Source: an uncultured delta proteobacterium
Lineage (GTDB): Bacteria > Desulfobacterota > RBG-13-43-22
Assembly (NCBI GenBank): GCA_963711835.1
Contig: CAVQFQ010000017.1
Coordinates: 608,001 to 672,000, forward strand
Reading direction: 5' to 3'
DNA: 64,000 nucleotides
Both the position numbers and the translations under genes were made by a program. Below, one piece after another: positions 23,138 to 42,815 of this stretch (position 1 is the stretch's first letter; every line of letters starts with the position of its first letter). The notes under the pieces were generated by a model. It made no database searches, was not told the DNA's origin, and worked only from the letters and a program-made list of their open reading frames with translations.

Positions 23138-23932
23138 ATGGCTGTGACTATCGAAAAAGTAAGTTTTGAATACGATGGAAATCCCATACTTAAAGACATC
23201 CGATTCGAGGTCCCGGAAGGGAAATTCACCGTACTTTTAGGGAAAAACGGCAGTGGCAAATCCACCTTGCTGCGTCTGATCGCCGGATTGCTGCCTTTAA
23301 AGACCGGGAGGATCAAAATCCTGGGACAGGATCTGCATCGGCTGAGCCTTTCCCAGCGGGCCAAATTGATCGGCTACCTGCCGCAATTCCATACCCCGAT
23401 CTTCCCCTTTACCGTTGAAGAGGTGGTGCTCACCGGCCGGGCCTCCTATGTCTTTTCTACGCCGAGCAGGAGAGACCAAGAAAAAGCCGGCCAGGCCATC
23501 GCCGAGGTTGGTCTTGAAGGTCTCAGGAAGCGGCCTTATACGGAGTTGTCCGGCGGAGAGAGGCAATTGGTGATGATCGCCCGGGTCCTGGCCCAGGAGC
23601 CGAGAGTGATCCTGCTGGATGAGCCCCTGTCCCATCTGGATCTGGCCAACCAGGCCCGGTTCCTGGGCTTGATCAAAAACCTGACCGGGATCGGGATGAC
23701 CATCCTGGCCGTTCTGCACGACCCCAATGCGGCCTTCCTGTCGGGCGATCATTTCGTTTTTTTGAAGAACGGCCGGGTTCAGGAAGTGGAAGAAGGGCAG
23801 GTCCCCTGGAATGCGGAATTCTTGAGCGCAGTCTACGGCACCCCCCTGAAAGCCATCCCCTTATGGCGACCGCTCGCTTATTGTGGCTTTTTGACGGCCG
23901 GAATTGGCATCGTTCAAAAGTTGTGGCACTAG
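23138..23932 (+). CDS. Metal-chelate ABC transporter ATPase
   Basis: GKNGSGKST, LSGGERQ, LLDEP; the C-terminus runs into repeat copy A. Confidence 0.92.
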   Translation: MAVTIEKVSFEYDGNPILKDIRFEVPEGKFTVLLGKNGSGKSTLLRLIAGLLPLKTGRIKILGQDLHRLSLSQRAKLIGYLPQFHTPIFPFTVEEVVLTGRASYVFSTPSRRDQEKAGQAIAEVGLEGLRKRPYTELSGGERQLVMIARVLAQEPRVILLDEPLSHLDLANQARFLGLIKNLTGIGMTILAVLHDPNAAFLSGDHFVFLKNGRVQEVEEGQVPWNAEFLSAVYGTPLKAIPLWRPLAYCGFLTAGIGIVQKLWH

Positions 23933-24223
23933 CGCATTATTGCCTGATTGGGGGACAGGGGGTCTCGATTTCAAGGCTTGTCCAAAGGGGGATCCTTCCC
24001 GCAAATCCGGCCCAGATTTCTAAGGTTGGTTTAGAGCCGGGCATTCACCCAACCGAACAAACAGCTTTGGCGTAGGCCTGCTTAAGGCATTATCGTCAAC
24101 CTTCCAGTCCCGCTAAAAGCGGGATTTCAAAGTGAGGAGTTTATGGTGGACAACCTTGAAATCGAGACCCCCTGTCCCCTTCCATTGGGTATCAGAAATA
24201 TAAGGCCACAACTTTTGAACGAT
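23909..24223. mobile_element. Nested inverted-repeat non-coding element, copy A
   Basis: Perfect 19-bp outer IR ATCGTTCAAAAGTTGTGGC (23909-23927 / 24205-24223); 33-bp inner IR GGGGACAGGGGGTCTCGATTTCAAGG(C)TTGTCCA (23951-23984 / 24147-24179). Confidence 0.85.
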
Positions 24224-24233
24224 ACTCAGGAAT

Positions 24234-25232
24234 TCAAGGACGGGCCTGTCCGGAATTCGAGTCCATCATCAGAGAAGATTCATCCACCGCTTCAAAATCG
24301 GATCCCAGGATAACATCCAGTTCATGGAGGACGTCGTTGTCCCAGCGCTCATCCGGGGCACCCGAAATGTACCAGGCCGAGCCGTTATCGGCCAGGATCA
24401 GGCCGTATTTTTTCAAGGCCTGGGCGATGACCCGGGCCTGGGGTGAAAACCGTGAAAGGTCATAACCGGCCTTGAGTCGAAAGCGCTGGCCCATGGGAGG
24501 GTATTGGCTGCCGGTCAGGCTGGAGGCATAGTGGCGGGCCGGCCAGATAAAGGCCTTGCGGGTCTGGGGAACAGTGAAACGCAGGGCGTGCTTGATTTCA
24601 CCGGAGGCAACTTCCTCGTAGCGCACCAGACCCGGCAGCATGGGCAAGCCGGCGGCGTCGGCCGAGGTCCAGCCGGCCGGGCGAAGGGTATGAGAATTCA
24701 GCGGGAAGATCGCCCCGGAGCCGGCGGACCACTGGCCGTTCTGTTGATAAGCGGCATAGAGTTCATAGAGGATGCAGTTATCCCGGTCGACGATCAGGAT
24801 GTGGCGGTCGCCGTTGCCGTTCGGGTCGCCTTCGATCAACGGCCGGTCGGGGATAGGGTAGGGCCCGGGATCGCTTTCAGAGGGGTAATAGAAAATGACG
24901 GATGATTTGGGTTGATTGCCGGAAACGATGTTGAAGGGGATGCCGATGGGAAAACCTTCCCAGGTCCCGGCCCCGAAATCGGCATGAACATGGCGCCCGG
25001 GGCCGATGGTAGCGATATAGACATTGGAGTTAGGATCCAACGGCAGGTTGTCCACCGGTGTGTTCCAGATGTTATCGGCAGGCAAGAGGGGACAGCCGGC
25101 CAGGGTGGGCCCGGCCGGGGCGGCCAGGATGAGCGGCAGATAGATGAAGGAGCCGGCTTCGGCCGTTGAGCCGGTCCCGCCTATGAGGAGAATCAAGACC
25201 AGGATGGGGATAAAAGGCCTTAGAAATTTCAT
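24234..25232 (-). CDS. Secreted hypothetical protein
   Basis: Signal peptide then IYLPLIL; blocks DNIWN, GDRH, WTSADAAGLP, HALRFT, YGLILADNGS. Confidence 0.75.
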   Translation of the reverse strand: MKFLRPFIPILVLILLIGGTGSTAEAGSFIYLPLILAAPAGPTLAGCPLLPADNIWNTPVDNLPLDPNSNVYIATIGPGRHVHADFGAGTWEGFPIGIPFNIVSGNQPKSSVIFYYPSESDPGPYPIPDRPLIEGDPNGNGDRHILIVDRDNCILYELYAAYQQNGQWSAGSGAIFPLNSHTLRPAGWTSADAAGLPMLPGLVRYEEVASGEIKHALRFTVPQTRKAFIWPARHYASSLTGSQYPPMGQRFRLKAGYDLSRFSPQARVIAQALKKYGLILADNGSAWYISGAPDERWDNDVLHELDVILGSDFEAVDESSLMMDSNSGQARP

Positions 25233-25610
25233 GCAGGTCTGTCTTATTCAAAATAATTGCTATTCTACTTCAAGTTGTGGCATTCTTTTCCGATTAGTTG
25301 GCCAGGACTAAAGGTTCGACGGTTTTAATGAAGCGGACGAAGGCCGGTCGGCACTATAATGCTGCCTTTCCAAGGCAGCCACAATCTAATCAATGGATCG
25401 CATTAGTATCCTCTTTTAAACTTCATCTCACCCGAATTGGAACCTAAAAAAAAATATGCTACAATGGATTTACCATTTTATAAAGATCAAAACGAAGTGT
25501 GTTCAACCCTCTGATAATCATCCCTAACATCTGACCCGGATTATGTGTTATCCATCCTTTTCAAGAGTTACGGGAGATCCACCAGGCCGGAGCCCTAGGG
25601 ATTTAAAAAC

Positions 25611-28022
25611 ATGTCCTTTTTTGAAGTCATAGTTCCTCCGTTGGACCACCCTTTAACCTACGAAGTCCCCGAGGAAATTTCTCCGGATCCCCAAATCGGG
25701 CAGCGGGTCCTCGTCCCCCTTAAAAATAAGATAGTTACCGGCTACTTATGGGAGGAAGTTAAAAAAACACTTCAGGGTCCGGAAATCAAGCCGTTAATCC
25801 GTATCCTCGACTCCCAGCCCTTTTTCTCACCGGCTCTGCGCCCCTTTTTCACCTGGATCGCCCAATATTACCTCCATCCGATCGGGCAGGTTCTAAAGAC
25901 CGCCCTTCCCCCGGGATTGACGGTCAGGAGTGTCTTGAAACTCCAAATCACTGACTTAGGCCAGAAGGTGCTTCAGAACGAACTCCTGCCTCATGAGGAC
26001 CGGGCTTTGTTGAAAAAAATTACCCCAAAGGGTCTGCTATTTTCTCGGCTGGCCGCCGAAGAAAGGGAATCCGTTGTTAATTTTGAAGCCTTAGGCTGGG
26101 TCTGTCAGACCAGCCAACTCAATCAGGAACGGGCTAAGGTCAAAAAAGAAAAGTGGCTTCATCCGGGTCCTTGTTTTGAGGGGCGGCATTTTTCAGAAAA
26201 AGAGTTGCCCTTGTTTGAGCATTTGACCTCCTTCTCCTGCGGGTCGCTTCGGGACATCAAGGCCCTTTTCAACCTATCTTCCCAGCGGCTGAACACCTTG
26301 AGAAAAAGGGGCTTGATTGAAATCAGGGACCAGGTTTGCTACAGAGATCCTTTTGGTGAAATCCTGTCGGTCGAGGAGATCCCCTTGACCCTCTATCCGG
26401 AACAGAAAAAGGCTTTGGAAAAAATTAAGGAAGGGCTCCAGTCAGGGGAATATCAAACCTTTCTTCTGCACGGCATCACCGGATCAGGAAAGACCGAAAT
26501 CTATCTCCAAGCGGCGGTCGAGGCCTTGAAAGAGGGCAAACAGGCCTTGGTCCTGGTCCCGGAAATAGGCCTGGTACCCCAGATTGAGGGGCGATTTCGC
26601 CTCCGCTTTGACGACCGGATCGCCCTCCTCCATAGCGGCCTGAACCCCGGTGAACGACTGGACCAATGGCGGCGCATTCAACAAGGTGCAGCCCCGGTGG
26701 TGATCGGCACCCGTTCGGCTATTTTTGCTCCTTTTTCAAATTTGGGTCTGATTATTGTCGATGAAGAACATGACGCTTCCTACAAACAAACCGATTCCCT
26801 GCGTTACCATGCCCGCGACTTGGCCCTGGTGCGCGCCCGATTGCATTCGGCCCTGGTTATTCTGGGCTCGGCCACTCCCTCCATTTCCACTCTTTATCTC
26901 AGGCGGCAAAAAAAAATCACCTACTTGGGATTAACCAAACGGGTTCGGGATCAGGCCCTTCCTGAGGTCAAGGTCCTTGATATAAAAAAGTTCCGCCGTC
27001 GGGGCCAAATCCCCCTTCTGAGCGCTCCCCTGGAAGAAGCCCTCCGCCAAAACCTGGAAAAAAGTCGGCAAGCTCTCCTTTTTCTAAACCGCCGGGGCTT
27101 TGATACCCTGATTCTCTGTACCCTCTGCGGGGAGATACTCAAATGCCGGAATTGTTCGGTGGCCTTAACCCATCACGCCCGGCAAAACCAGCTCCTCTGC
27201 CACCTGTGTGGTTATCACATCCCCATCCCCCAGCGATGCCCTCAATGCCGACAGGAAGGAATCAAGCCTCTGGGCTTAGGGACCGAAAAAGTCGAGAAAG
27301 AACTGATCAGGCTTTTCCCGGAAGCGGCCCTGGACCGGATGGACCGGGACACGGTGGTTCGTAAAAGATCGCATTTTGAAATCCTGAAAAAAGTAAGGGA
27401 CAGGAAAACAGATATCCTGATCGGAACCCAGATGATCACCAAAGGCCATGATTTCCCTTATGTCACTCTGATCGGGGTTATCTGTGCCGATCTGTCTTTG
27501 AACTGGCCCGATTTTCGAGCCGGGGAAAGGACCTTCCAGCTTCTGGCTCAGGTAGCCGGCCGGGCCGGAAGGGGCGCCGATCCGGGAACGGTTTATATCC
27601 AGACCTATAATCCCCATCATTATGTCTTTAAGTATCTTCTGCTCCATGATTACCTGGGTTTTTTCGGACAGGAAATCCGGTTTCGCCGGGAACTCGGGTA
27701 TCCCCCTTTTTCCCGTCTGATAAATGTCCTCTTCCAGGGCAACCGGGAATCGGCGGTTAAAGAGGCGGCCGGGGTAACGGCCGGAATCCTCCGGCTGGAA
27801 AAAGAAAAAAGCCGCTGGGGAGATTCTCTGGAGATCTTAGGACCTGTGCCGGCCCCCATCGCCAGGATCAAAGGGAAATACCGCTATCAACTCCTGTTGA
27901 AAGGGGAGAACAGCCGGATGGTCCACAAGGCCGCCGGAATTATTCAACAGGCCGAGAAAGGTGTGATTCAGGGAAAAGGGGTTCAAATTGTCCTGGATGT
28001 CGATCCGGTAGATATGCTATAA
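25611..28022 (+). CDS. priA: Primosomal protein N'
   Basis: GITGSGKTE, DEEH, four CxxC zinc motifs, QVAGRAGR. Confidence 0.97.
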   Translation: MSFFEVIVPPLDHPLTYEVPEEISPDPQIGQRVLVPLKNKIVTGYLWEEVKKTLQGPEIKPLIRILDSQPFFSPALRPFFTWIAQYYLHPIGQVLKTALPPGLTVRSVLKLQITDLGQKVLQNELLPHEDRALLKKITPKGLLFSRLAAEERESVVNFEALGWVCQTSQLNQERAKVKKEKWLHPGPCFEGRHFSEKELPLFEHLTSFSCGSLRDIKALFNLSSQRLNTLRKRGLIEIRDQVCYRDPFGEILSVEEIPLTLYPEQKKALEKIKEGLQSGEYQTFLLHGITGSGKTEIYLQAAVEALKEGKQALVLVPEIGLVPQIEGRFRLRFDDRIALLHSGLNPGERLDQWRRIQQGAAPVVIGTRSAIFAPFSNLGLIIVDEEHDASYKQTDSLRYHARDLALVRARLHSALVILGSATPSISTLYLRRQKKITYLGLTKRVRDQALPEVKVLDIKKFRRRGQIPLLSAPLEEALRQNLEKSRQALLFLNRRGFDTLILCTLCGEILKCRNCSVALTHHARQNQLLCHLCGYHIPIPQRCPQCRQEGIKPLGLGTEKVEKELIRLFPEAALDRMDRDTVVRKRSHFEILKKVRDRKTDILIGTQMITKGHDFPYVTLIGVICADLSLNWPDFRAGERTFQLLAQVAGRAGRGADPGTVYIQTYNPHHYVFKYLLLHDYLGFFGQEIRFRRELGYPPFSRLINVLFQGNRESAVKEAAGVTAGILRLEKEKSRWGDSLEILGPVPAPIARIKGKYRYQLLLKGENSRMVHKAAGIIQQAEKGVIQGKGVQIVLDVDPVDML

Positions 28023-28093
28023 TTTTGCTCTGAGACATATAAAGCAAAAAGCAACAGGTCAGGCAATATGACAACTAAGATGATGAGCCGGTT

Positions 28094-28612
28094 ATGGCCC
28101 TCTTAGAAATCCGCAAATATCCGGATCCGGTTTTGGGGAAAAAAGCTAAACCGGTGGAAATTATCAATGACACCCTTAAAGCCCTGATTCAGGACATGGT
28201 CGAGACCATGTATCAGGCCCCGGGGATCGGTCTGGCGGCCAACCAGGTCGGAAGGCCTCTCAGACTGATCGTCTTTGATGTTACCCCCAAAGATCAAAGC
28301 CGCAATCCATCGGCCATTATCAATCCGGAAATTTTCGAGGCCGACGGCGATCAAACCGTTGAAGAGGGCTGCCTCAGCGTCCCGGATTATTATTCCGAGG
28401 TAAAACGAAGCGCCAGCGTAAAAGTGCGGGGACTGAACGACCAGGGTCATCCGGTCGAGGTCTGCGCCGAAGGGATGCTGGCCACGGTTTTACAACATGA
28501 AATTGATCACCTGGACGGTATCCTCTTTATTGACCGCATCAGTTCCCTGAAACGGACCCTTTATAAAAAAAGGATTCAAAAGAAGTTGAAGAAAGAAAGT
28601 GAACCGGTCTAA
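28094..28612 (+). CDS. def: Peptide deformylase
   Basis: GIGLAANQ, EGCLS, QHEIDHLDG. Confidence 0.97.
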   Translation: MALLEIRKYPDPVLGKKAKPVEIINDTLKALIQDMVETMYQAPGIGLAANQVGRPLRLIVFDVTPKDQSRNPSAIINPEIFEADGDQTVEEGCLSVPDYYSEVKRSASVKVRGLNDQGHPVEVCAEGMLATVLQHEIDHLDGILFIDRISSLKRTLYKKRIQKKLKKESEPV

Positions 28613-29558
28613 CTATTCCCGTCTAATCTTCATGGGCACCCCCGATTTTGCCCTGCCCTGCTTAAAGGCCCTCTTGCAGGCCAAAGAGGAGGTGGTTGCC
28701 GTTTATACGCAGCCGGATCGTCCCCGAGGACGGGGGCAGAGGATAAGCCTTTCTCCGGTCAAAGAGTTGGCCTTGGACAGCCGCCTCCCGATCTTTCAAC
28801 CCAAAACCCTCAGGGACTCGTCCCTTCTCAGGCAATTGGCGGAACATAAACCGGATCTCTTAATCGTGGTCGCCTATGGTTTGATCCTCCCCCAAGAGGT
28901 TCTGGACATCCCGACCTGGGGGGCCGTCAATGTCCATGCCTCCTTATTGCCCAAATATCGGGGGGCGGCCCCGATTCAGTGGGCCATTATTAAAGGTGAA
29001 AAAGAGACCGGCGTTACCACCATGCGCCTGGATGCCGGTATGGACACCGGAGATCTGCTCTTCCAGCAACCCCTGCCGATCCTGGAAACCGATACCACCC
29101 AGAGCCTGCAGGATCGGCTTTCCGAAGCCGGCGCGTCCTTATTGCTCCAGACTCTCACCGCCCTTCGCCAGGGCACCTTAGTCCCCTTTCCCCAGGACCC
29201 CCGCCTAGCCAGCTATTCCCCCCCCTTAAAAAAAGAACAGGGGGAAATCAATTGGGAACTGTCGGCCCGGGAAATAAACGGTTGGGTAAGAGGCTTAACC
29301 CCCTGGCCGGGTGCCTTTACTTTTTGCCGGGGAAAACGATTGCTCTTGCATCTGGCCTCACCCGAAACGGAAAACGATCGCGGGATCCTGGGAACCATTC
29401 ACTCTCTGCCTGAAGGATTGATTCGAGTCCAGACCGGCCAGGGGTTATTGGTCTTGAAAGAAGTTCAGTTGGAGGGCCATCGCCGGGTCTCGTCCCAAGA
29501 ATTTTTGAAAGGGTTCCCCCTCAAGGTCGGAGATCGCCTGGGCCGCCGATGGCCTTGA
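28599..29558 (+). CDS. fmt: Methionyl-tRNA formyltransferase
   Basis: FMGTPDFA, NVHASLLPKYRGAAPIQ. Confidence 0.97.
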   Translation: MNRSNYSRLIFMGTPDFALPCLKALLQAKEEVVAVYTQPDRPRGRGQRISLSPVKELALDSRLPIFQPKTLRDSSLLRQLAEHKPDLLIVVAYGLILPQEVLDIPTWGAVNVHASLLPKYRGAAPIQWAIIKGEKETGVTTMRLDAGMDTGDLLFQQPLPILETDTTQSLQDRLSEAGASLLLQTLTALRQGTLVPFPQDPRLASYSPPLKKEQGEINWELSAREINGWVRGLTPWPGAFTFCRGKRLLLHLASPETENDRGILGTIHSLPEGLIRVQTGQGLLVLKEVQLEGHRRVSSQEFLKGFPLKVGDRLGRRWP

Positions 29559-30901
29559 CCAGGGCCTTGGCTCTCCAGGTCTTGCTGAAGGGACACCGAA
29601 GCCAGGCCTATCCGGATCAGATCCTGCGGGAGATGCTGGACCGATATCCCGACCTTTCCCTTCGTGACCGGGCCCTGGTCTATCAATTGGTTTTAGGAGT
29701 GCTTCGCTGGCAGGGGAAGATCGACTGGATTATCCGGCAGGTTTCCCTGAGACCTCTGGAAAAGCTGTCCCTGAAGACCCTGACCATTTTGCGTTTGGGG
29801 GTATTTCAACTCTTTTTCCTATCCCGCATACCCCCTTCGGCTGCCGTTAATGAATCGGTCAACCTGGCCAAGAACGGGGAGGAATGGTCAACCGGATTCA
29901 TCAATGGGGTGCTTCGATCCATCCTTCGGAGGAAAGAGAGCTTTCCCTTTCCCACCCCGGAAGATCCTATCCCCTACTTGGCCGTTAATTATTCCCACCC
30001 GGTTTGGCTGGTGGAAGAGTGGCTCCGGATTTGGGGTTTTGAAAAAACCCGGGAATTCTGCCAGGCCAACCTGGAGATCCCGCCCGCAACCCTTCGGGTC
30101 AATACCTTGAAAATCGGCCGGGATGTGCTGCTTCCTAAATTGCGCAGGTTGGCTTCCCAGACGGAGGCTGCGGCCTACTCCCCGGAAGGGGTAAGGATGA
30201 TCTCACCCCTCAAACCTTTGCAACAGACCGAATTTTTCAAAGAAGGCCTTTTCCAGATCCAAGACGAGGCATCCCAACTTATCAGCTTTATCCTGGATCC
30301 CCAGCCCGGAGAAAGGATCTTAGACCTGTGCGCCGGTTTTGGGGGGAAAGCCTCGCATCTGGCCCAGTTGATGAAGAACCGGGGGATCATCCGGGCTGTT
30401 GACCATAATCCCAGGAAATTAAAAGATCTGATGAAAAATGTTCACCGTCTGGGGGTTTCCATCATTCAAGGCTGGGTCGGGGATGCCGCCGGAGAGGACA
30501 TTTTTCCGAAAGACAGCCCTCCCTTTGATCGTATCCTGCTCGATGCGCCCTGCACCGGCTGGGGGGTGATCAGGCGCAATCCCGACCTTAAATGGCGGCT
30601 CACAGCCGAAGACAGTCCCCGTTTAGCCGACCGGCAAAACAAGTTCTTGCAAAAAGCCGCCAACTGGCTTAAATCGAAAGGTGTTCTGGTTTATGCCACA
30701 TGTACCCTGAGCCCGACGGAAAATGAGGAAGTGGTGGCCCGGTTTTTAAAGGAACATCCGGATTTCTCGCTGGAGGATGTTTCTCCTTTTTTACCCAGGA
30801 AGGCCAAAGGACTGGTGGACGGCCAAGGGTTTTATCGGACCTGGCCTCCCCTTCATGGAACGGACGGCTTTTTTGCCGCCCGGATGATAAAAAGCGGTTA
30901 G
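29549..30901 (+). CDS. rsmB: 16S rRNA m5C967 methyltransferase
   Basis: NusB-like N-terminus, QDEASQ, DLCAGFGGK, DAPCTG, YATCT. Confidence 0.95.
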   Translation: MALTRALALQVLLKGHRSQAYPDQILREMLDRYPDLSLRDRALVYQLVLGVLRWQGKIDWIIRQVSLRPLEKLSLKTLTILRLGVFQLFFLSRIPPSAAVNESVNLAKNGEEWSTGFINGVLRSILRRKESFPFPTPEDPIPYLAVNYSHPVWLVEEWLRIWGFEKTREFCQANLEIPPATLRVNTLKIGRDVLLPKLRRLASQTEAAAYSPEGVRMISPLKPLQQTEFFKEGLFQIQDEASQLISFILDPQPGERILDLCAGFGGKASHLAQLMKNRGIIRAVDHNPRKLKDLMKNVHRLGVSIIQGWVGDAAGEDIFPKDSPPFDRILLDAPCTGWGVIRRNPDLKWRLTAEDSPRLADRQNKFLQKAANWLKSKGVLVYATCTLSPTENEEVVARFLKEHPDFSLEDVSPFLPRKAKGLVDGQGFYRTWPPLHGTDGFFAARMIKSG

Positions 30902-31005
30902 CCCCCGGCAATCACCATTCAGGAAAAAAATAAACCTCCTGTGTTTGGGTAGTTGCCGATCGCTGAAAGCTGATAGCTCAACGCCAAAAATATAGGAGTT
31001 GTAAC

Positions 31006-31668
31006 ATGAGACGCATTGCCCCCTCGATACTTTCTGCAGACTTTGTTCGGCTTAAAGAAGAAATTCAGGCCGTGGAGGCCGCCGGCGCGGATTATCTTCA
31101 TATTGATGTCATGGACGGCCATTTTGTCCCCAACATCACCATTGGGCCGCCGGTAGTAGCGGCCGTCCGGAAAGTCACCCGCCTCCCTCTGGATGTACAT
31201 CTGATGATCGAAAACCCGGATCAGTATATTCCGGAATTTGCCAAGGCCGGAGCCACTATCCTGTCCGTCCACCAGGAGACCTGCCCCCACCTTAACCGAA
31301 CCATCAATCTGATCAAGGAATACGGCCTGATCCCAGCGGTAGTTTTGAATCCTTCCACCCCGATCTCCACCTTGGAGGATATCTTGGAAGAGGTGGACAT
31401 GGTCATGATCATGAGCGTCAATCCCGGTTTCGGAGGTCAGAAATTCATTCCCGGAACAATCAAGAAGATCCGCAACCTCAAAAGGATGATAAGGGAAAGG
31501 GGTTTAAACATAGATATTGAAATCGATGGAGGGGTTACTCCAAAAAATGTAGGCCAAGTCTGTGAAGCCGGGGCGGATGTGGTGGTGGCCGGTTCGGCTA
31601 TTTTTCATACCCCCGACTACCGGAAGACGATGGCCTTATTCAGGGCCGAAATGGGGGAGGGTGCCTAA
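31006..31668 (+). CDS. rpe: Ribulose-phosphate 3-epimerase
   Basis: [32 protein letters not shown]. Confidence 0.97.
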
Positions 31669-31727
31669 CTTTTCGAACCCTTTTTTTAATTAATGCTGCT
31701 CCGAAAATAACCCTTTCCGGATCCCCA

Positions 31728-33708
<1,981 letters not shown>

Positions 33709-33723
33709 TCTCTCCCCATGCTT

Positions 33724-34101
33724 TCAACCCTGCTCCTCCCAATAGGAAGCGCAGGCGCTATCCGATTCCCAGACCGCGACCTTGCTGATCCGGGTTTGTG
33801 AATCGTCCAGAAGACGGCTCAATTCCCTGAAGAGATAGCGGGCGATATTTTCCGAAGATGGGTTTTCCTGTTGAAAATAGGCCTGGTCGTTCAAATAGGT
33901 ATGATCCAATCGCTGCAAAACTTCCCGGGTAATGGCCTTGATTTCTCCAAAGTCCTTAACCAGTCCGGTTTCATCCGGTTGAGAAGCCCGGACATAGACT
34001 TCCACCTTCCAGTTGTGCCCATGGAGTTGCTCGCATTTCCCTTTAAAGCCCCTCAAATGATGGGCCGCTGCAAACTGGGTGATTATTTTTAATTCATACA
34101 T
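33724..34101 (-). CDS. queD: 6-carboxytetrahydropterin synthase
   Basis: FAAAH...CEQLHGHNW, NPSSENIA. Confidence 0.93.
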   Translation of the reverse strand: MYELKIITQFAAAHHLRGFKGKCEQLHGHNWKVEVYVRASQPDETGLVKDFGEIKAITREVLQRLDHTYLNDQAYFQQENPSSENIARYLFRELSRLLDDSQTRISKVAVWESDSACASYWEEQG

Positions 34102-34103
34102 GA

Positions 34104-34316
34104 TCAGGCCATCCCGGCCGTTTTCAGGATTTTAAGACGATTTTGAAATTTCTGACCCAAGGCCCTCAAGTCCACCTGCAGGCTGGCCATATCCTGGTGC
34201 CTTTTGGCCAGAATCCGTTCCACTTCGGACATCCAATACTGGACCACTTCAATCTCTTTTTTTGAGAGCTCTTCCTGAAGCCGCTGATTGATCTGCTTGA
34301 TAAGGGCCTGATCCAT
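34104..34316 (-). CDS. Small helical hypothetical protein
   Basis: 70-aa ORF ending 2 bp before the queD start. Confidence 0.6.
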   Translation of the reverse strand: MDQALIKQINQRLQEELSKKEIEVVQYWMSEVERILAKRHQDMASLQVDLRALGQKFQNRLKILKTAGMA

Positions 34317-34476
34317 GGGGAATAGGTTCTCTTTCTACGGGTTGTAATGAATTTTTTAGGAAAAATGGCAATGGGTTTAATATTTCATAGGATTCAGGCG
34401 AAGTCAAGGCCTTGCTGATTTCTGAAAGCTACTTGAGGGTTGACATAGCGCGAGGGAAGTGCTACTTTCCAAGACT

Positions 34477-36192
34477 ATGAAAAATACAAGGAACTTAACC
34501 CTAACGAAGGCTCTGTTTGGAAGTCTTTTTTTGCTTTCTTTGATCCTGCCGGGGGCAGGGATTGAGACGGCCTGGTCTGCCGAAGCCAGCCGGGTGGCCA
34601 TACTGCCCTTTGCCATCAACGCCTCCGACAAGCTGGACTATCTGAAGGAAGGCCTTCAGGATATGCTGGCCTCCCGTCTGGCCTGGGAGAACAAGGTACT
34701 GGTCCTGGACCGTCTTCAGGTTCAGAAGGCTCAGGAAAAGTTTCCCGGACCGGTGGATGAGAAAAAAGCCCTCCTGATCGGCAAGGAGTTACATCTGGAT
34801 TACCTCCTCTGGGGGAGCGCCACCATCATCGGGACCGGCATCAGCCTTGACGTCAGCCTGGCCGACCTTTCCGACCAGCGGCCTCCCTTGAAATTTTTTT
34901 CTCAGGCCAAAGGGATGGATGAGGTAATTGTCAGGGTCAATGAGCTGTCCGATGATATCAACGAAAAGGTCTTTAAACGACCCCGGTCCTATGCGGCGGC
35001 CGCCTCACGGGGGGAATCCGTTTCTTCCGGAACCGGAGCGGCGCCCGCTTCCCCGGCTGCTTCCGAGAGATCTCCTCTGGCCTTGAAGGATTTTACCATC
35101 AATACCCTTTCCCCGCAGATTATTCTGAATGCCGGAGGTTTTGATGTGGCCGGTCTCTGGCGCAGCGCCATCCTGCCCTATGCCCTCCGGGACCTGGCCT
35201 TTGGAGACCTGGACGGCGATGGGAAGATTGAAACCGTTATTATCAGTCAAAACAAGGTCTATATTTACCGCTATGTTCAGGACAAGTTTGAACTGGTCAA
35301 GGAGATAGCCGGACAGCGGTTCGATAATTATATCGCCGTGGATGCGGGCGATATCCATGGGACCGGCCGGGCCCAGATTTTTGTTACCAATTACCATTCC
35401 GGAACTCCAAAATCCCTGACCCTGGCCTGGGATAATGGGGACTATAAGGTGCTGGCCAGGGATATCCCCTACCATTTGCGTATTCACCAGCTGCCCGGTC
35501 GGGGGGCGGTTCTTTTGGGTCAAAAAAAAGTTCGGGATATCCCCTTCTATCCCGAAGTTCACATCCTGACCTGGAAAGGCCGGGAATATGTCTCGGTTGA
35601 AAAATTGGAGGTGGCCGAAGGGGCAACTGTTTTTAATTTTGTTTTTGCCGACCTGAACAACGACGGCTCCACCGAGATCGCTCATCTCAGCCGCAATGAC
35701 CGGCTGATGGTCCTGAGTCCGAAATGGAAAACGGAATATATCAGCAGCGACCTTTACGGGGGCACCGTTAATTTTGTACTAGGGACCGAGGAATCAAACA
35801 CGTTCACCTCTACGATCATGTCGGAACAGGCCAACCGCCACTATGTCCCGGCCCGCCTGGTGGTCACCCCGGTTTTGGATCCGGGGAAAAACGAGCTGAT
35901 TGTCAATAAGAATAAGGGGTCTTTTCAGAACAGTATCCTGGACCGCTTTCGCTCCTATTCCAGCGGGGAGATATATTCCTTAAGCTGGGACGGGGCCGGC
36001 TTCAAAGAAAACTGGCGGACCCAGGTGATTCCCGATTATGTGGCCAATTACGGAGTGGCCCAATTCAAGAACAATGGGCGGCGTCAACTGGTGGTCGGGG
36101 TGGTTCAATCCCGAGGATTTCCTTTTGTCTCCGACGCCCGGAGTGTGCTATACTGCTATGAGTTGGGCCTGGTGAAACCCAGTCAACGTTAG
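34477..36192 (+). CDS. Secreted FG-GAP/VCBS-repeat protein
   Basis: Signal peptide, RVAILPF N-terminal domain, GDLDGDG and ADLNNDG repeats. Confidence 0.8.
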   Translation: MKNTRNLTLTKALFGSLFLLSLILPGAGIETAWSAEASRVAILPFAINASDKLDYLKEGLQDMLASRLAWENKVLVLDRLQVQKAQEKFPGPVDEKKALLIGKELHLDYLLWGSATIIGTGISLDVSLADLSDQRPPLKFFSQAKGMDEVIVRVNELSDDINEKVFKRPRSYAAAASRGESVSSGTGAAPASPAASERSPLALKDFTINTLSPQIILNAGGFDVAGLWRSAILPYALRDLAFGDLDGDGKIETVIISQNKVYIYRYVQDKFELVKEIAGQRFDNYIAVDAGDIHGTGRAQIFVTNYHSGTPKSLTLAWDNGDYKVLARDIPYHLRIHQLPGRGAVLLGQKKVRDIPFYPEVHILTWKGREYVSVEKLEVAEGATVFNFVFADLNNDGSTEIAHLSRNDRLMVLSPKWKTEYISSDLYGGTVNFVLGTEESNTFTSTIMSEQANRHYVPARLVVTPVLDPGKNELIVNKNKGSFQNSILDRFRSYSSGEIYSLSWDGAGFKENWRTQVIPDYVANYGVAQFKNNGRRQLVVGVVQSRGFPFVSDARSVLYCYELGLVKPSQR

Positions 36193-36201
36193 CCTATCCG
36201 T

Positions 36202-36278
36202 GGCGGTGTAGCTCAGGTGGTCAGAGCATGCGGCTCATATCCGCAGTGTCCGGGGTTCAAATCCCTGCACCGCCACCA
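36202..36278 (+). tRNA. tRNA-Met(CAT), elongator type
   Basis: Acceptor stem GGCGGTG/CACCGCC with encoded CCA; anticodon arm TGCGG-CTCATAT-CCGCA; T-loop GGTTCAAATCC. Confidence 0.95.
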
Positions 36279-36447
36279 TCTTTTAACCCCTTTTAGCCAG
36301 GCATTCTTAACCCTATCGGCCATGGAACGCATCTTCTTTACCTTTTATTTTTGCTTTTCTGAAGGCGGATGCCCGAGGAAGGAAACCCTCCTGCCTTCCT
36401 GAGCGGATGAAACGGGCGGTCGCCGAAAGCGCTGCCCTGGGTTTTTT

Positions 36448-36484
36448 AAAGGCCTTGGGCGATCGCCCCAAGGCCTTTTTTTTT
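36448..36484 (+). terminator. Intrinsic terminator
   Basis: AAAGGCCTTGGG-CGATCGC-CCCAAGGCCTTT followed by a long T-run. Confidence 0.8.
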
Positions 36485-36570
36485 GATGAAACCTGATCCG
36501 TTCGTATCACCCCGACCCCCTTATTGGGAAGTCAGAGATAAATTTTTGAAACAGGCTGATTGAACAACAC

Positions 36571-38169
36571 ATGACACAAAAAAACAGCCTCTATCTGCCG
36601 GCCAAGCAGGTGGAAAAAAAATTCCAGGAAGCCGGTTTGGGCTTAAAAGAAACCCTGGCTTTGATAGAAATGACCTGGCAGGATTCAGGGCAGGGATCCG
36701 CCCCGGGGCCTTTTAGCGATCTTTTCAGCGGACTGGATCATTTGACCCGGCATACCGTCCAGGGCAGCCGGATCAAGCGTTATAAACCGGGCGGACCAGG
36801 CCGGCCGTTTCAGACCTTCGAAGTCTATACCGCCGAGGGGGAGGTCCTGGCCTACCTGAATATGCTTTACCTGAGAAAGCCTCTACCCTGCTATTATCTG
36901 GTTTACGTTGAGGTGACGCCCGCTTTTCGAGGGAAAGGATTGGGCAATCGCATTCTGGCGGCCTTCCGGGATTTTGTAGAAGATAAGGGGGCCCTCGGCC
37001 TTTTGGATAATATCATTCCGCCAGAGGATCCCACCTTCGACCTGTATGCCAAACTGGGCTGGCTTCCTATTGAAACCTGGCTGAGCTCCCAGGAGGACAT
37101 GACCCAGGGACACTATATGATCACTATCCCTTCGACCCTCAAGACCGACCAGTTTAGGCTAAAACTTCCCAAGCTGCTCTTCAATCTCAAGAAGAAAAGA
37201 CCGGTTATCGACATGCAGGACAACGAGTTGATGGTCCAAAGGACCATCCAGGAATTCCATCAGATTTACCAGGCCCTGGAAAAACTGTTTCAGGCGGAAC
37301 TCACGGCCGGCCGCTCCAGCCCTTTGATGCGCTTTATGTTTACCAAATTTACGACCCGGCTGTTGGGTTTTCGGCGCCGCATCCAGGAACTGTTAGGCTA
37401 TACCGGTGGCGAGTCTCTGGAGCAGATCGTTCTCTCTCCGACGGTCTGTGCTTTACCGATTCAATCCCATACCTTTGAGCCCAACCCGGCCGGCCGGCTG
37501 CAGCTTTTCGGAAAGGCCGCTTTCTGGCAATCCCTGCCGGACTTTTTACGGGAAAACCCTACCTCTTCCATCGAGGGTCTACCCCTTTACCAACGCCCTT
37601 TTTTAATCCAATGGATGAAAGCCCACCAGCGGACCGAGCCCCTGAAATTAACCATTGCCGACCTCCTGGACCTCGGATTCGATCCCACCCGGCTCCGGGA
37701 ATTCCGGCACCAAGGACAGGCCATTATCTTTGAACGGGTCTCTCCTGCTCTCCTAACCGGAGTAAAAGTGAGAGGAGCCCTCCTGGAAAAAATTGGCCGA
37801 AAAACCTCCGGTCTTCGTCTGAACGGGACCCAAATGCGGATCAATCCCATACTGGTCTGGATTCTGGACCGGGGCAATGGGTATATTCTGCGCCAGAAGA
37901 TAGCCGGGATTCACTGGGAAGAGGCAGCGGCTCAATGCCGGGAGAATCCCCAGTTGGCTTCTCTTAACCGGCAGCTCTCTCTGGATCAGAAAATCAGCCG
38001 GACCGTTCGTGATCTCAGGGATTGGATTCAAGATCATATCCGTTTTCCGAAAAAAACCTCCCTGGCGGATCTGGCTTTTTTTATTCCCTGGAACATAGAA
38101 AGCAATCGCCCCCTGTTTTCCATTGACGATGCCAACCAGCCCTATCTGGAAATGGTCTGGATTGCCTAA
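36571..38169 (+). CDS. GNAT-domain protein with a large uncharacterised C-terminal region
   Basis: VEVTPAFRGKGLGNRIL motif A and LYAKLGW; about 330 further residues unassigned. Confidence 0.7.
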   Translation: MTQKNSLYLPAKQVEKKFQEAGLGLKETLALIEMTWQDSGQGSAPGPFSDLFSGLDHLTRHTVQGSRIKRYKPGGPGRPFQTFEVYTAEGEVLAYLNMLYLRKPLPCYYLVYVEVTPAFRGKGLGNRILAAFRDFVEDKGALGLLDNIIPPEDPTFDLYAKLGWLPIETWLSSQEDMTQGHYMITIPSTLKTDQFRLKLPKLLFNLKKKRPVIDMQDNELMVQRTIQEFHQIYQALEKLFQAELTAGRSSPLMRFMFTKFTTRLLGFRRRIQELLGYTGGESLEQIVLSPTVCALPIQSHTFEPNPAGRLQLFGKAAFWQSLPDFLRENPTSSIEGLPLYQRPFLIQWMKAHQRTEPLKLTIADLLDLGFDPTRLREFRHQGQAIIFERVSPALLTGVKVRGALLEKIGRKTSGLRLNGTQMRINPILVWILDRGNGYILRQKIAGIHWEEAAAQCRENPQLASLNRQLSLDQKISRTVRDLRDWIQDHIRFPKKTSLADLAFFIPWNIESNRPLFSIDDANQPYLEMVWIA

Positions 38170-38180
38170 CCTTTTTGGAC

Positions 38181-38468
38181 TCGTTCAAAAGGTCTGGCCT
38201 TATTCCCGATTCACGACGGCAGGGGACCGGGGGTCTCGAATTTAAGGCTTGTCCAAAGGGGGACCCTTCCCACCAATCCGGCCCAGATTTCTAAGTTGGT
38301 TTAGAGCCGGGCCTTCACCCACCCGGACAAACAGCTTTGGTGGAGGCCTGCTTAAAGCATTATCGTCACCTTTCCAGTCCCGCTAAAAGCGGGATTTCAA
38401 AGTGAGGAGTTTATGGTGGACAACCTTAAAATCGAGACCCCCGGTCCCCTGCTCTATCTTTTGAACGA
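38181..38468. mobile_element. Nested inverted-repeat element, copy B
   Basis: Outer IR TCGTTCAAAAG/CTTTTGAACGA; inner IR 38219-38452; core nearly identical to copy A. Confidence 0.85.
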
Positions 38469-38571
38469 TAGGGACCCCCTTCTTCCTTGTCCCCCTCTTG
38501 AATTTTACTTGACAGAAGGACCCCGACAGGAATAATTTTAATGAAATTTTATTGTGTTAGAGGATCGGCGG

Positions 38572-39252
38572 ATGAATTGCGGATTAAAAAAGATGACGGC
38601 TGTTTTCGGGATAATTTTTCTTTGGGCTGCTTTCGGAATTGCCGGGACGCCCTCGCTTCAACTCAAGGAAACGAACTACGATTTCGGGGAGGTCGAGGAA
38701 GGGGCGGTTGTCAGCCATGACTTTGAACTCCGGAATACCGGTTCCGATCCCCTGGAGATTATCGAAGTCCGTCCGGGCTGAGGCTGTGCCGTGGCCCATT
38801 TCGATCGGGTCATCCCTCCTGGTGGGGAGGGTAAAATTACCTTAAAGGTTGATCTGAAAGGATACCAGGGTAAAGTCTGGAAATCGGCTACCGTCACCAG
38901 TAATGACCCTCAAAAGCCATCTCTTCATTTGAATCTTCAGGGAAAGGTCAAGCCCTGGATTGAAATCCGGCCTTCCCGAGTAATTCACTTCCGAAAAGCG
39001 TTAGGGGGTGAAGATGAAAAATCGATTGATTTGATCGGTTCTGGCCAACCTTTTTCGGTCCTCAGGGTGGAAACCACGCTGACTGAGAAAATACGCTTTC
39101 AAGTAGAAACGGTTGTTGAGAAAAAACATTACCGCCTCAAAGTCGCTCCCTTGGTAAAACAGGGAAGCTATGCCGGCACCCTCAAATGTGTTACGGATCA
39201 CCCGAAAAAACCCGAAATCCTCCTTCAAGTTATAGGTCAATTCGATAGTTAA
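38572..39252 (+). CDS. DUF1573 (Ig-like) exported protein with in-frame UGA, probable selenoprotein
   Basis: ORFs 38554..38781 and 38791..39252 are in frame: YDFGEV...NTGSDPLEIIEVRPG-UGA-GCAVA...IPPGGEGKI; UGA sits at the first Cys of the CGC motif. Confidence 0.75.
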
Positions 39253-39262
39253 AAATGGTTAC

Positions 39263-40486
39263 ATGCACCTACTCGCACTGACCCATCTCTTTTATCCGGC
39301 CCGGGGAGGAACTGAAATCGCCCTCCTGGAGCTTTCCAAGAAATTGGTGGAGAAAGGGCATCGGGTTACGGTTCTGACCTCCAACCAGCTCTCCCTGGAG
39401 GCTTTTAGAAATCCTCAAACCAATACTCATCTGGCTCAAAAGGAATCGGCCAAGGGAATCCAAATTTGCCGTCTGCCCCTCTCCAATAGGCAGCGGCTGT
39501 TTTGGGCCAAATTGGGGGCCCTGTTCCTGCGCAGCCGGGTGCCCGGAGGGGATTACCTCTGGTTCATGGCGCATCTGCCCTACTTGCCTCAGATGATTTC
39601 CCGGGCCAGGACCCTTAAACCGGATATCCTGTATGCAGTGCCATTTCCTACGGCCACTCCGTTTTACGCCCGTATGGCCGCCAAGACCCTCAGGTGCCCC
39701 TGGGTGATCCAGCCCCATCTGCACCCCTCCGATATCAATGGCTCTCTGCGCAAAATCATCCGTTGGTTGTTTCCCCAGGCCAGCGCCGTGGTTGTCAATA
39801 CCAGGGCCGAACAGGATTTTTTAATCAATTTGGGCCTGTCAAAAGATAAGCTGCCCGTCATAGGCCAGGGGATTGACCTCTCGCCTCTCCAAACCGGCGG
39901 CCAGACCAACATCAGGACTCGCCTGGGATTAAACCAGGAACCGCTGATCCTTTTCATGGGACGCAAAGTAGAAAAAAAGGGCCTCGATACCCTTCTGAAA
40001 TCCATGCCTTTTGTCTGGAAGGATCACCCTGAAGCCCGGCTGATCCTGGCGGGTCAAAGCAGCCCCTATTTCCAAGCCCTTTGGCACAGCCAACCGGAAA
40101 CTTCGGATCGGCGGATCATTTCCCTGGACGATTTTGCGGAAGATGAAAAGGCCGCCCTGTTGGCCGCCTGTGATCTGTTGGTATTACCCTCCCAGGCGGA
40201 AAGTTTTGGAATCGTTTATTTAGAAGCCTGGGCCCTGGGGAAACCGGTCATCGGGGCCAGGGTCCCGGCTGTGGAGGCCTTGATTGATGAAGAGGCGGAC
40301 GGTTTACTGGTCCCCTTTGATGATCCCTCCCAATTGGCAGCTCAGATACTGAGACTCATAAATGATCCTGACCTTAGAAAAAGCCTGGGGGAAAAGGGGC
40401 GCCATAAAGTGGAAACCCATTATGAAATCCACCAGGTGGCTGATCGGTTCGAGGCCTTTCTGAACCAGTTGGGGGGTGCTAGATGA
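39263..40486 (+). CDS. Glycosyltransferase family 4
   Basis: GGTE, GRKVEKKG, PSQAESFGIVYLEAW. Confidence 0.92.
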   Translation: MHLLALTHLFYPARGGTEIALLELSKKLVEKGHRVTVLTSNQLSLEAFRNPQTNTHLAQKESAKGIQICRLPLSNRQRLFWAKLGALFLRSRVPGGDYLWFMAHLPYLPQMISRARTLKPDILYAVPFPTATPFYARMAAKTLRCPWVIQPHLHPSDINGSLRKIIRWLFPQASAVVVNTRAEQDFLINLGLSKDKLPVIGQGIDLSPLQTGGQTNIRTRLGLNQEPLILFMGRKVEKKGLDTLLKSMPFVWKDHPEARLILAGQSSPYFQALWHSQPETSDRRIISLDDFAEDEKAALLAACDLLVLPSQAESFGIVYLEAWALGKPVIGARVPAVEALIDEEADGLLVPFDDPSQLAAQILRLINDPDLRKSLGEKGRHKVETHYEIHQVADRFEAFLNQLGGAR

Positions 40487-41361
40487 ATCCGGCCGGCAAC
40501 ATTTCCGTGGTAATCTGCACCCTGAATCGGGAAGATTCCCTGGTTCATGTCCTGGAACTGCTTAAAACACAGGAGACCCAACCCAAAGAGATACTGGTGA
40601 TCGATCAAAGCCGGGAACACCGACCCGAGACCTGGAAATACTTACATGACAACCAATACCGGATTCGCCGACTGACGCTGCCCCATCCCTCCACCACCGC
40701 CGCCCGAAACCTGGCCCGCAAAGAGGTCCAGGGGGATATCGTGCTCTTCCTCGATGACGACGTTCTTTTCCAGCCCGGCCTGGTCGGTTTTCACCTCGAA
40801 AATTATCAGGATCCGGCTGTCGGGGCCGTTAGCGGCAAGGTCCTCTATGACGGTTCCCGGGAAAATGATGAACCCTGGGCCGCCCGTTTGACGCCCAGCG
40901 GAAAATACCTCCGGAACTTTACCACCAACCGGCGCTGCTTCGTCCCCACCCTCTACGGCTGCAACATGTCCCTGCGGAGAAAGGTCTTGCAGGAGGTGGG
41001 GGAGTTCGATCTGAACTACTGGGGGAATTTTTTATGGGAGGAGGTGGATTATGCTTTGGAGGTTCGCCGGCACGGCTTTCAGATTGTCTATGATCCCCGG
41101 GCGGCGGTCTTTCATGTCATGGTTAAACAGGGCGGCAGCAGAAACCCTCCTCCGGGACCTTATCTGGAGAGTACGATCTTTAATGACTGGTATTTTTTCT
41201 TTAAACATTTCCCCGGCAAATATTGGCCTTTTCTCCTTTACCGGCAGAAGAGGACCTGGCTTCGCTATGGACAGCAACGATTTGGAAATGTGCTGCCGTT
41301 GATCAGACAGATCTATCGGGCCTTTCAAAAGGCCGGACATAAAATAGCAACAATTTCCTGA
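40483..41361 (+). CDS. Glycosyltransferase family 2
   Basis: ISVVICTLNR, FLDDD, EEVDY. Confidence 0.9.
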   Translation: MNPAGNISVVICTLNREDSLVHVLELLKTQETQPKEILVIDQSREHRPETWKYLHDNQYRIRRLTLPHPSTTAARNLARKEVQGDIVLFLDDDVLFQPGLVGFHLENYQDPAVGAVSGKVLYDGSRENDEPWAARLTPSGKYLRNFTTNRRCFVPTLYGCNMSLRRKVLQEVGEFDLNYWGNFLWEEVDYALEVRRHGFQIVYDPRAAVFHVMVKQGGSRNPPPGPYLESTIFNDWYFFFKHFPGKYWPFLLYRQKRTWLRYGQQRFGNVLPLIRQIYRAFQKAGHKIATIS

Positions 41362-41375
41362 CAGCCGGGATTGCC

Positions 41376-42392
41376 TCAGACCGTAAAATAGTCCCGGTAC
41401 CAGGCAACGAATTTCTTTATCCCTTCCTCCAAAGACGTGGACGGCTTAAACCCCACGGCCTGCATGAGATCATCCACATCGGCGTACGTGGCGGGTACAT
41501 CCCCCGGCTGCATCGGCAGGAAGTTCTTCTCCGCCTTCCGACCCAGGCAGTCCTCCAGGACTTCGATAAAGCGAAGCAGCTCCACCGGGTTATTATTGCC
41601 GATATTGTACAGGCGGTAGGGAGCAAAACTGCGGCTCGGATCCGGCCGATCTCCATTCCACTCCGCATGGGGTTCGGGGGCCTGCTCAAGGATGCGTACC
41701 ACCCCTTCGATAATATCATCGATGTAAGTAAAATCCCTCTGCATCTTTCCGTAATTAAAAACCGGGATCGATTTCCCTTCCAAAATGGCCTTGGTAAAAA
41801 GGAACAAGGCCATATCCGGTCTGCCCCAGGGGCCGTAAACCGTAAAAAACCGGAGTCCGGTGGAGGGGACTTTATACAAACTGGCATAGGTGTGGGCCAT
41901 GAGTTCGTTGGCTTTTTTGGTGGCCGCATATAAGGAAATCGGGTGATCCACATTATCGTGGACCGAAAAGGGCATCTTGGTATTGGCTCCATAAACCGAG
42001 CTGGAAGAAGCAAAGACCAGATGTTGAATCCGATGATGCCGGCAGCCTTCCAGGATATTTAAAAAGCCGACGATATTGCTTTCCACGTAGGCCTGGGGAT
42101 TTTCAAGGGAATAGCGCACCCCGGCCTGAGCAGCCAGGTTTACCACCCGATCAAAACCCTGCTCTGAGAAGAGGCCGGCCATCCGCTCCTGATCGGCCAG
42201 GTCTATCTTCCGAAAATCAAAATTTTTCCATCCCTCCAGTTTGCGCAGCCGGTTTTCCTTGAGACGGACATCATAATACGGGTTCAGATTGTCGAGGCCG
42301 ACTACCTGATCGCCCTTCTCCAGTAGGCGCCGGCAGAGATGAAATCCGATGAAGCCGGCTGCCCCAGTAACCAGGATTTTCTTGTTGCTCAT
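41376..42392 (-). CDS. UDP-glucuronate 4-epimerase (NAD-dependent)
   Basis: [36 protein letters not shown]. Confidence 0.92.
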
Positions 42393-42508
42393 AAGCGGTC
42401 CTTTCCCCTTTTTCCCTTTCTCCATACCATTTTTTGCTTCAACAAATCAACCCCTTCCTGGCCTTGCCCTGATCCCCGGTTTATGGTAAAGTAAGCCCCG
42501 GATTTTTT

Positions 42509-42815
42509 GGTAACGTTCAGAAGTTGATGCATTATATTTCTGATACTCGATGGAAAGGGATCGGGGGTATCGATTTCAAGGATTGTCCGAAAGGTAATCC
42601 GCAGCCCCAACCCGGCCCGAATTTCTAAGTTGGTTGGGAGCCGGGCCTTCACCCCAGACGATAAATCGCCTTGGTGTTGGCCTGCTTCTAAACCCACTTA
42701 TAACTTCCTGCCCGGGGTCAGGCTGCCGGCGTTTCGGCGGACAACCTTGAAATCGAAACCCCCGGTCCCCAAGTCAGGCAATAATACGCCAGTGCCATAA
42801 CTTTTGAACGTTACC
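42509..42815. mobile_element. Nested inverted-repeat element, copy C
   Basis: Outer IR GGTAACGTTCAGAAGTT/AACTTTTGAACGTTACC; inner IR 42557-42770. Confidence 0.85.

What the first reader, a model, noticed from the sequence alone, without database searches (positions are those of the whole stretch)
23909..42815. The element's core is flipped relative to its outer shell between copies
Seen: A, B and C have a second, outer IR (CGTTCAAAAG...CTTTTGAACG) joined to the inner IR by two different spacers. The core reads in the same direction in all three. In A the left spacer is GGCACTAGCGCATTATTGCCTGA and the right is TCCATTGGGTATCAGAAATATAAGGCC. In C the left spacer is the reverse complement of A's right (TTATATTTCTGATACTCGATGGA) and the right spacer is the reverse complement of A's left (TCAGGCAATAATACGCCAGTGCC). 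B has a core almost identical to A but a C-type left spacer. Inference: the core has inverted between the 33-bp inner repeats, by recombinase action or template switching on the hairpin, or it inserts site-specifically into the shell in either orientation. It could act as an invertible regulatory switch.
Basis: partly seen in the sequence, partly recalled or inferred. Interest (0 to 1): 0.72.

Follow-up and report, generated by a model that had tools for sequence, protein, structure and literature searches.

The report
Flipping core in nested jumping-DNA repeats
In a large family of small gene-less jumping-DNA repeats, the middle ~160 bases face backwards inside their outer shell in about one copy in five, likely through rare DNA-copying or repair accidents between two 33-base inverted repeats rather than through a controlled genetic switch.

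Summary
A, B and C are copies of a ~310-bp non-coding MITE: a transposon-like shell (8-bp target duplication, ISH6-like ends) around a ~215-bp hairpin core with 33-bp inner inverted repeats. The genome holds 137 core loci in at least five shell families. Of 113 orientable copies, 88 face one way and 25 the other, in four families. Reversed copies do not form a clade (rejected in 3 of 4 families) and keep their target duplications. One orthologous site in two related genomes has the same core in opposite orientations, and related strains show copy C's core reversed at C's own site, so flips happen in place. Break points vary along the inner repeat, and its two arms are copied onto each other, which fits template switching or homology-driven recombination. 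A switch is unlikely: the ratio is far from 50:50, 9 of 9 other orthologous pairs agree, orientation ignores gene direction, and no invertase or core promoter was found. Empty shells look like deletions, not insertion targets. The scan earlier reported this family, and similar passive flips in other genomes. The core's origin remains unexplained.

The parts
23906..24226 (+). Copy A: whole MITE, A-type (ISH6-like) shell, majority arrangement; 8-bp target duplication at 23898-23905 and 24227-24234
23906..23950 (+). A: shell half 1 (terminal repeat plus spacer 1); contains the TAG stop of the upstream ABC ATPase ORF 23138-23932
23951..23983 (+). A: left inner inverted repeat (33 bp, ending TTGTCC, with one extra base used as a marker)
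   Evidence: (I22)
23984..24147 (+). A: invertible core interior (imperfect palindrome, no ORF)
24148..24179 (-). A: right inner inverted repeat
24180..24226 (-). A: shell half 2 (spacer 2 plus terminal repeat)
38177..38472 (+). Copy B: A-type core, diverged half-2 spacer on the left, right shell mostly deleted, no target duplication; probably a damaged reversed copy. Inner repeats 38219-38254 and 38418-38452
   Evidence: (I12)
42509..42815 (+). Copy C: A-type shell with D-type core in the reversed arrangement; perfect 8-bp target duplication at 42501-42508 and 42816-42823
42557..42589 (+). C: left inner repeat; its extra base stayed with shell half 2, so the break point lies in the innermost ~7 bp
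42590..42737 (+). C: core interior, reversed relative to related strains at this same site
42738..42770 (-). C: right inner repeat
63590..63895 (+). Copy D: D-type shell in the reversed arrangement (left boundary approximate, left half damaged); same arrangement in an independent contig (L151)
50031..50309 (+). Copy E: E-type shell (ends approximate) with a shortened core, majority arrangement
   Evidence: (I13)
3760..3890 (-). Truncated core (right half) with a perfected inner hairpin
   Evidence: (D2, I7)

Best explanation
These repeats are nested MITEs whose ~150-175-base core has turned round in place, independently in many copies, likely by rare homology-driven accidents between the two 33-bp inner repeats (most likely a replication template switch, possibly RecA-type recombination) and likely without any regulatory role. 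Shown: both orientations in four shell families; scattered reversed copies with intact target duplications; opposite orientations at orthologous sites; variable break points; arm-to-arm sequence copying. Inferred: shell and core move as one unit through a transposase supplied in trans. After insertion the two arms occasionally exchange strands. An exchange within one arm makes the arms alike, an exchange across the fork reverses the core, and slips at short direct repeats delete it, giving the empty shells. The rate is roughly 3-8 times the per-base substitution rate.
For: Orientation table: A 24:3, D 25:7, E 13:9, F 14:3, G 3:0, plus 9:3 among 12 long-core D copies. On core trees the number of changes equals the number of reversed copies in every family, and one reversed clade is rejected for A, D and E (p-AU 2e-94, 4e-5, 2e-86). 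Reversed A and D copies keep 8-bp target duplications (6 of 9 scored have 7-8 of 8 matches). In place: G010 and G014 share one site and shell; the cores match 143 of 150 only when one is reversed, with flanks 128 and 133 of 150. At C's site, contigs of runs X3 and X9 join C's right flank to the core in the opposite sense, and the X9 junction carries a variant found in only 3 of 30 D-type cores, C among them. Break points: a marker base next to TTGTCC went with the core in 7 reversed copies and with the shell in 5. Arm copying: 46 variants are shared by both arms of one copy, against 5.8 expected from shuffles. In a young G015 family one arm mismatch is kept in 4 of 9 full copies and resolved one way in 3 and the other way in 2. 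The reversed fraction rises with family divergence over 7 groups (rho 0.95). Template switching is described as causing both arm homogenisation and spacer inversion (PMC8604942, passages).
Against: The spacer inversions in the yeast paper are only 2-5 bp; these are ~150 bp, so the mechanism is extrapolated. Family F monophyly of reversed copies is not rejected (p 0.26), and its arm sharing does not exceed the shuffle maximum. A G015 A-like family stands at 5:4 with only ~6% pairwise divergence, more than a simple clock predicts; it was not among the 7 groups of the correlation. A recent insertion (L124, site empty in G000, flanks 97-99% alike) is already reversed, so some flips may occur at transposition or be inherited. 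One-arm variants (131) outnumber both-arm ones (46). No leading/lagging-strand bias was found, although the skew signal is weak. The evidence at C's site comes from separate short contigs of other strains, in which the element is also partly deleted.
Confidence: 0.75

Rival explanations
1. The core is a cassette that is replaced between copies by gene conversion, using the shared inner repeats as homology. A donor core can be copied in either orientation, so some 'flips' are replacements.
For: D-type cores occur in both A and D shells and interleave on the tree (8 changes for 8 copies; one clade rejected, p-AU 0.003), while the A shells that hold them cluster (2 changes). At 2 of 9 orthologous sites the orthologous core ranks only 5th and 16th among G000 cores.
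Against: At 7 of 9 orthologous sites the orthologue is the best or tied-best match. The two in-place flips involve the same core: 143 of 150 identical in G010/G014, and a rare variant shared at C's site. The core trees are short and poorly resolved.
Confidence: 0.12
2. A dedicated trans-acting recombinase or the transposase itself inverts the core at the conserved TTGTCC/GGACAA motif, possibly as a slow or conditional switch.
For: TTGTCC is nearly invariant across genera. In 5 reversed copies, including all 3 informative E copies and C, the break lies within the innermost ~7 bp. The genome has 7 tyrosine-recombinase matches. Correia elements are reported to invert (review PMC10969869, passage).
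Against: In 7 other reversed copies, and in the G015 A-like family (marker on the core's left arm in 9 of 9 copies, both orientations), the break lies outside that motif. No PF00239 resolvase/invertase in G000. The overall ratio is 88:25, and 9 of 9 other orthologous pairs agree, 4 of them both reversed. No link to gene direction (core sense in 32 of 57). No sigma-70-like promoter in C's core (only C scanned). Neighbouring genes are varied housekeeping or unassigned genes.
Confidence: 0.07
3. The core is an independent element that inserts site-specifically into the middle of empty shells in either orientation.
For: The same core sits in at least five unrelated shells, so it entered each lineage at least once. 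Ten empty shells exist.
Against: The empty shells have several different junctions at short direct repeats and keep inner-repeat remnants. Two match a variant arm of a filled copy (C4:454946). None of the 5 full cores with poorly matching shells is clearly free of shell-like flanks. Orthologous flips keep the same core. ISL3 elements in 9 of 21 family genomes do not share the core's ends.
Confidence: 0.04
4. Reversed copies are assembly errors caused by the inner repeats.
For: No reads of the window's own sample were available. Related strains show the other orientation at C's site. One G015 locus (L048) looks like a palindromic assembly artefact.
Against: Four other reversed G000 copies have the same reversed arrangement in independent contigs (L116, L118, L127, L151). 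Reversed forms occur in unrelated assemblies (5 of 24 metagenome loci with both A or D halves assigned). C's arms differ at several positions.
Confidence: 0.02

Closest known systems
Template-switch arm homogenisation and spacer inversion between inverted repeats (PMC8604942, yeast; cites Schofield 1992 for E. coli, title only seen)
   Same: The same two products from one process: arms made identical and spacer reversed, repeatedly and in parallel.
   Different: Published spacers in that paper are 2-5 bp within genes. Here ~150-175 bp flip between 33-bp arms, in about 110 dispersed copies.
Correia repeat enclosed elements of Neisseria (MITE reported to invert; review PMC10969869, passage)
   Same: A multi-copy bacterial MITE whose sequence between inverted repeats can reverse at a locus.
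   Different: Correia elements carry strong promoters and are proposed to phase-vary. Here only an inner module flips inside a fixed shell, and no promoter or orientation effect was found. The primary inversion paper was not held.
ISH6 family (p-MULT 2) insertion sequences, e.g. ISDesp5 (PMC3942029, passages and Table S1)
   Same: A-type shell ends GGTA(A/T)CGT versus ISDesp5 GGTAGCGT; 8-bp target duplication; AA....TT target preference.
   Different: No transposase; similarity is limited to the terminal bases; target positions 4-5 do not match AANATNTT well; shells D, E and F have other ends.
Invertons / phase-variable switches such as hin, fim and invertible promoters (search listing only; mechanism recalled)
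   Same: A segment between inverted repeats occurs in two orientations.
   Different: No invertase found, variable break points, skewed ratio, orientation mostly stable between strains, no cargo promoter or gene.

Membership tests
MITE | Short, non-coding, terminal inverted repeats | tested here: met
   307-321 bp, no internal gene, 17-20-bp terminal repeats in A and C
MITE | Target-site duplication and empty sites in relatives | tested here: met
   8-bp duplications with 7-8 matches in 19 of 25 scored oriented A copies and 21 of 30 D copies; sites empty in G000 but filled in relatives, e.g. L124, L150, L158
MITE | Many dispersed copies | tested here: met
   137 core loci in 3.9 Mb
ISH6 family (A shell) | GGT-type ends and 8-bp AT-rich duplication AANATNTT | tested here: inconclusive
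   Ends and length match. Positions 1, 2, 7, 8 are A15, A16, T19, T15 of 19, but positions 4-5 are mixed
ISH6 family (A shell) | Cognate p-MULT 2 transposase between the same ends | tested here: inconclusive
   The exact 17-nt end occurs in 2 of 21 genomes; the G015 ends inspected bracket cores or lie beside ordinary genes. PF00872 absent from G000; the PF06782 search was uninformative. No ISH6-specific profile was run
Inverton (recombinase-driven switch) | Fixed crossover site in the inverted repeat | tested here: not met
   Marker base goes with the core in 7 reversed copies and with the shell in 5
Inverton (recombinase-driven switch) | Cognate invertase, often nearby | tested here: inconclusive
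   No PF00239 in G000 (89% complete); 7 PF00589 matches elsewhere; none among the 11 neighbouring window genes scanned
Inverton (recombinase-driven switch) | Both orientations at one locus within a population, high rate | tested here: inconclusive
   Only contigs were available, which drop rare variants. Indirect evidence is against: 88:25 and 9 of 10 orthologous comparisons with close strains agree
Inverton (recombinase-driven switch) | Promoter or coding sequence whose effect depends on orientation | tested here: not met
   No promoter-like site in C's core (other copies not scanned); no link to gene direction
ISL3-derived MITE (core) | Ends shared with ISL3 elements | tested here: not met
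   No ISL3 in G000; a core profile finds nothing in the ISL3 loci from the family
Known structured RNA families (Rfam) | Match at gathering score | tested here: not met
   Only a tRNA in the window; chance-level hits for C and four other copies

The most novel reading that the evidence does not exclude
The ~215-bp core is a conserved cassette in its own right, shared by at least five unrelated transposon shells across a bacterial family. A dedicated trans-acting system acting near its invariant TTGTCC motif both flips it and swaps it between shells, making it a new kind of hitch-hiking mobile module.
Probability: 0.1. Interest if true: 0.7.

Novelty: new variant of a known kind. Interest (0 to 1): 0.3.

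Why it matters
As it stands it is a clean natural data set for a mutation process usually studied on short reporters: about 110 copies, several age classes and orthologous sites give a rough rate and break-point spread for ~150-bp inversions between 33-bp repeats. It also warns that sequence-only inverton predictors could mistake such repeats for switches. It would matter much more if the core proved to be actively flipped or exchanged, because a module shared by unrelated transposon families has no explanation yet.

Tried and rejected
Rfam searches of the window, C and four other copies gave nothing relevant; recalled resemblances to group I introns and c-di-GMP riboswitches were dropped. The recalled idea that the core has ISL3-type ends failed. 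Searches for an autonomous parent found none: PF00872, PF01610, PF06782 in G000, the shell-end pattern in 21 genomes, the core pattern in genome contigs (51 loci) and viral contigs (0 loci). A phylum-wide profile search with the core was not run, so distant relatives remain open. Orientation versus transcription and versus replication strand showed no bias. The second laying of contigs (C10 region) was uninformative on flips because the related strains lack those E copies. L109 was not counted as a flip: a distant shell, and the whole element faces the other way. L119 and L146 share only one flank with G000's empty shells, so they are weak evidence. L048 was dropped as a probable assembly palindrome. 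Outer terminal repeats share variants between arms in A (6 vs 1.4 expected) but not in D or F (0 and 0). Literature searches listed no paper on an inner module flipping inside MITE shells; the four-term search returned 0. The library lacks most subscription papers.
Full report
Observation. A (23906-24226) reads shell half 1 - inner repeat - core - inner repeat - half 2. C (42509-42815) reads half 2 - core - half 1, with the core in the same direction. Four spacer pairings beat all 5000 shuffles and the other six are at chance. A and C have 8-bp target duplications. B has a half-2-like left spacer, a mostly deleted right shell and no duplication. C folds as one long DNA hairpin (-76 kcal/mol, z -7.8).

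The family. A profile search of the 3.9-Mb genome gave 137 core loci. Of these, 103 could be assigned to five shell families, here A, D, E, F and G. Majority versus reversed: A 24:3, D 25:7, E 13:9, F 14:3, G 3:0, with 2 ambiguous (B is one). Twelve further D copies with a longer core add 9:3, giving 88:25; three majority copies have identical twins on other contigs and may be duplicates. The other 22 loci are truncated or have poorly matching shells. The core also occurs in relatives: 5 of 20 family genomes matched copy C, and a core pattern found 51 loci, all in uncultured genomes, mostly labelled deltaproteobacterial or Thermodesulfobacteriota, and 60 metagenome loci. A-shell ends and target preference resemble ISH6/ISDesp5 (PMC3942029: passages and one supplementary table row seen, one supplement file not searched). 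No parent transposase was found, so membership is not shown. The ISH6 lead came from earlier scan notes and was checked only this far.

Flips are many and independent. On core trees the fewest changes of orientation equal the number of reversed copies in each family (3, 7, 9, 3). One reversed clade is rejected for A, D and E but not F. Trees are short and weakly supported. Reversed copies keep shell and target duplication, so only the inside has turned.

Flips happen in place. G010 and G014 hold the same E-type shell between the same two genes. Their cores match 143 of 150 only when one is reversed. At C's own site, contigs from related strains carry the same left flank and shell half 2 (X2, X3), while contigs of X3 and X9 join C's right flank to the core's right end in reverse, followed by a deletion. 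The X9 junction has a variant seen in 3 of 30 D-type cores, one being C. These are separate short contigs of other strains, not reads of the source. Nine other orthologous sites in metagenome contigs agree with G000, four of them in the reversed state, and seven of the nine have the orthologous core as best or tied-best match.

Mechanism. A marker base beside the innermost TTGTCC differs between the two arms in majority copies. In reversed copies it travelled with the core 7 times (5 D, 1 A, 1 F) and with the shell 5 times (C, 1 D, 3 E); the other 10 of 22 are homogenised or uninformative. A single-site recombinase would be expected to give one pattern (established knowledge). The arms of one copy share 46 variants against 5.8 expected, 21 of them private to that copy; 131 variants are on one arm only. 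A young G015 family shows one arm mismatch resolved in both directions, and two copies have the repeat extended inward by 2 and 6 bases. Arm homogenisation with spacer inversion is the described signature of template switching (PMC8604942, passages), although on far shorter spacers. RecA-type exchange with conversion would look similar and is not excluded. The choice of template switching is inference.

Rate and function. The reversed fraction rises with divergence: 0 of 3, 0 of 15 (G015 young family; divergence from its 9 full copies), 2 of 19, 3 of 17, 1 of 8, 7 of 32, 9 of 22. A two-state estimate gives 3-8 flips per copy for each substitution per site. This is rough, because divergence from a family majority is a poor clock, and one G015 family at 5:4 breaks the trend. 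It is still orders of magnitude below recalled phase-variation rates. Core direction is unrelated to flanking gene direction (32 of 57) or to the inferred leading strand (53 of 101). C's core has no promoter-like site, G000 has no serine recombinase match, and neighbours are ordinary genes.

Empty shells. Five A, two D and three F shells lack a core. Their junctions differ and fall mostly at short direct repeats such as GACC. They retain parts of the inner repeat, and two carry the variant arm of a filled copy. They read as deletions. No clearly shell-free core was seen among five candidates. The insertion model is therefore weak for the orientation pattern, although the core must once have entered each shell family.

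Open points. D-type cores interleave between A and D shells, which hints at core exchange between copies. What the core is remains unknown: no Rfam family, no ISL3 link, no viral match.

Comparison and verdict. It works like template-switch spacer inversion and resembles reported Correia-element inversion (review passage; primary paper not held). It fails or leaves open the tests for an inverton. Eight literature searches listed no description of an inner module flipping within several MITE shells. Earlier scan notes describe this family in the same genome and similar passive flips in three other genomes; they are unchecked leads, not support. Verdict: real, well documented, most likely passive; a new variant of a known kind; interest 0.3.

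Noticed in passing
G000 genome-wide: D-type cores occur in both A and D shells and interleave on the tree while their A shells cluster; possible core exchange between shell families.
   Followed up: partly
L222 (G000:C17:14380-14760), L223 and 10 similar copies: A long-core subfamily has a ~54-nt two-hairpin insert, and several cores have loops replaced by a small GC-rich palindrome. Insertions at fixed loop positions and some G-U pairs in the alignment fold hint at strand-specific structure.
   Followed up: partly
L103, L112, L116, L118, L127, L151, L153 versus G000: At 7 of 9 orthologous sites the core differs by 0.7-3.3%, mostly less than the flanks (2.5-14%); possible constraint on the core.
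   Followed up: no
G000:C22:75441 vs L126/L154; G000:C26:27960 vs L113: Different shell families inserted at or next to the same site in different strains; some insertions lie shortly upstream of TTGACA.
   Followed up: no
L047 (G015:C282): A copy with shell half E2 on both sides of the core, suggesting a long template switch or recombination between opposite copies.
   Followed up: partly
window 23138-23932: The ABC ATPase gene ends at a TAG inside copy A's left shell.
   Followed up: no
window 54756-55254: Cluster of short REP-like palindromes in direct and inverted order.
   Followed up: no
window 58540-58673: A 134-bp AT-rich imperfect palindrome unrelated to the family.
   Followed up: no
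window 38791-39252: ORF with a partial match to the OS_HP2 (seleno)protein family, below cut-off and starting at model position 45; an upstream TGA read-through is possible.
   Followed up: no
window 47863-48301 and 57970-58408: Two inverted similar stretches (75% over 114 bp) inside ORFs, probably paralogous ABC ATPase motifs.
   Followed up: no
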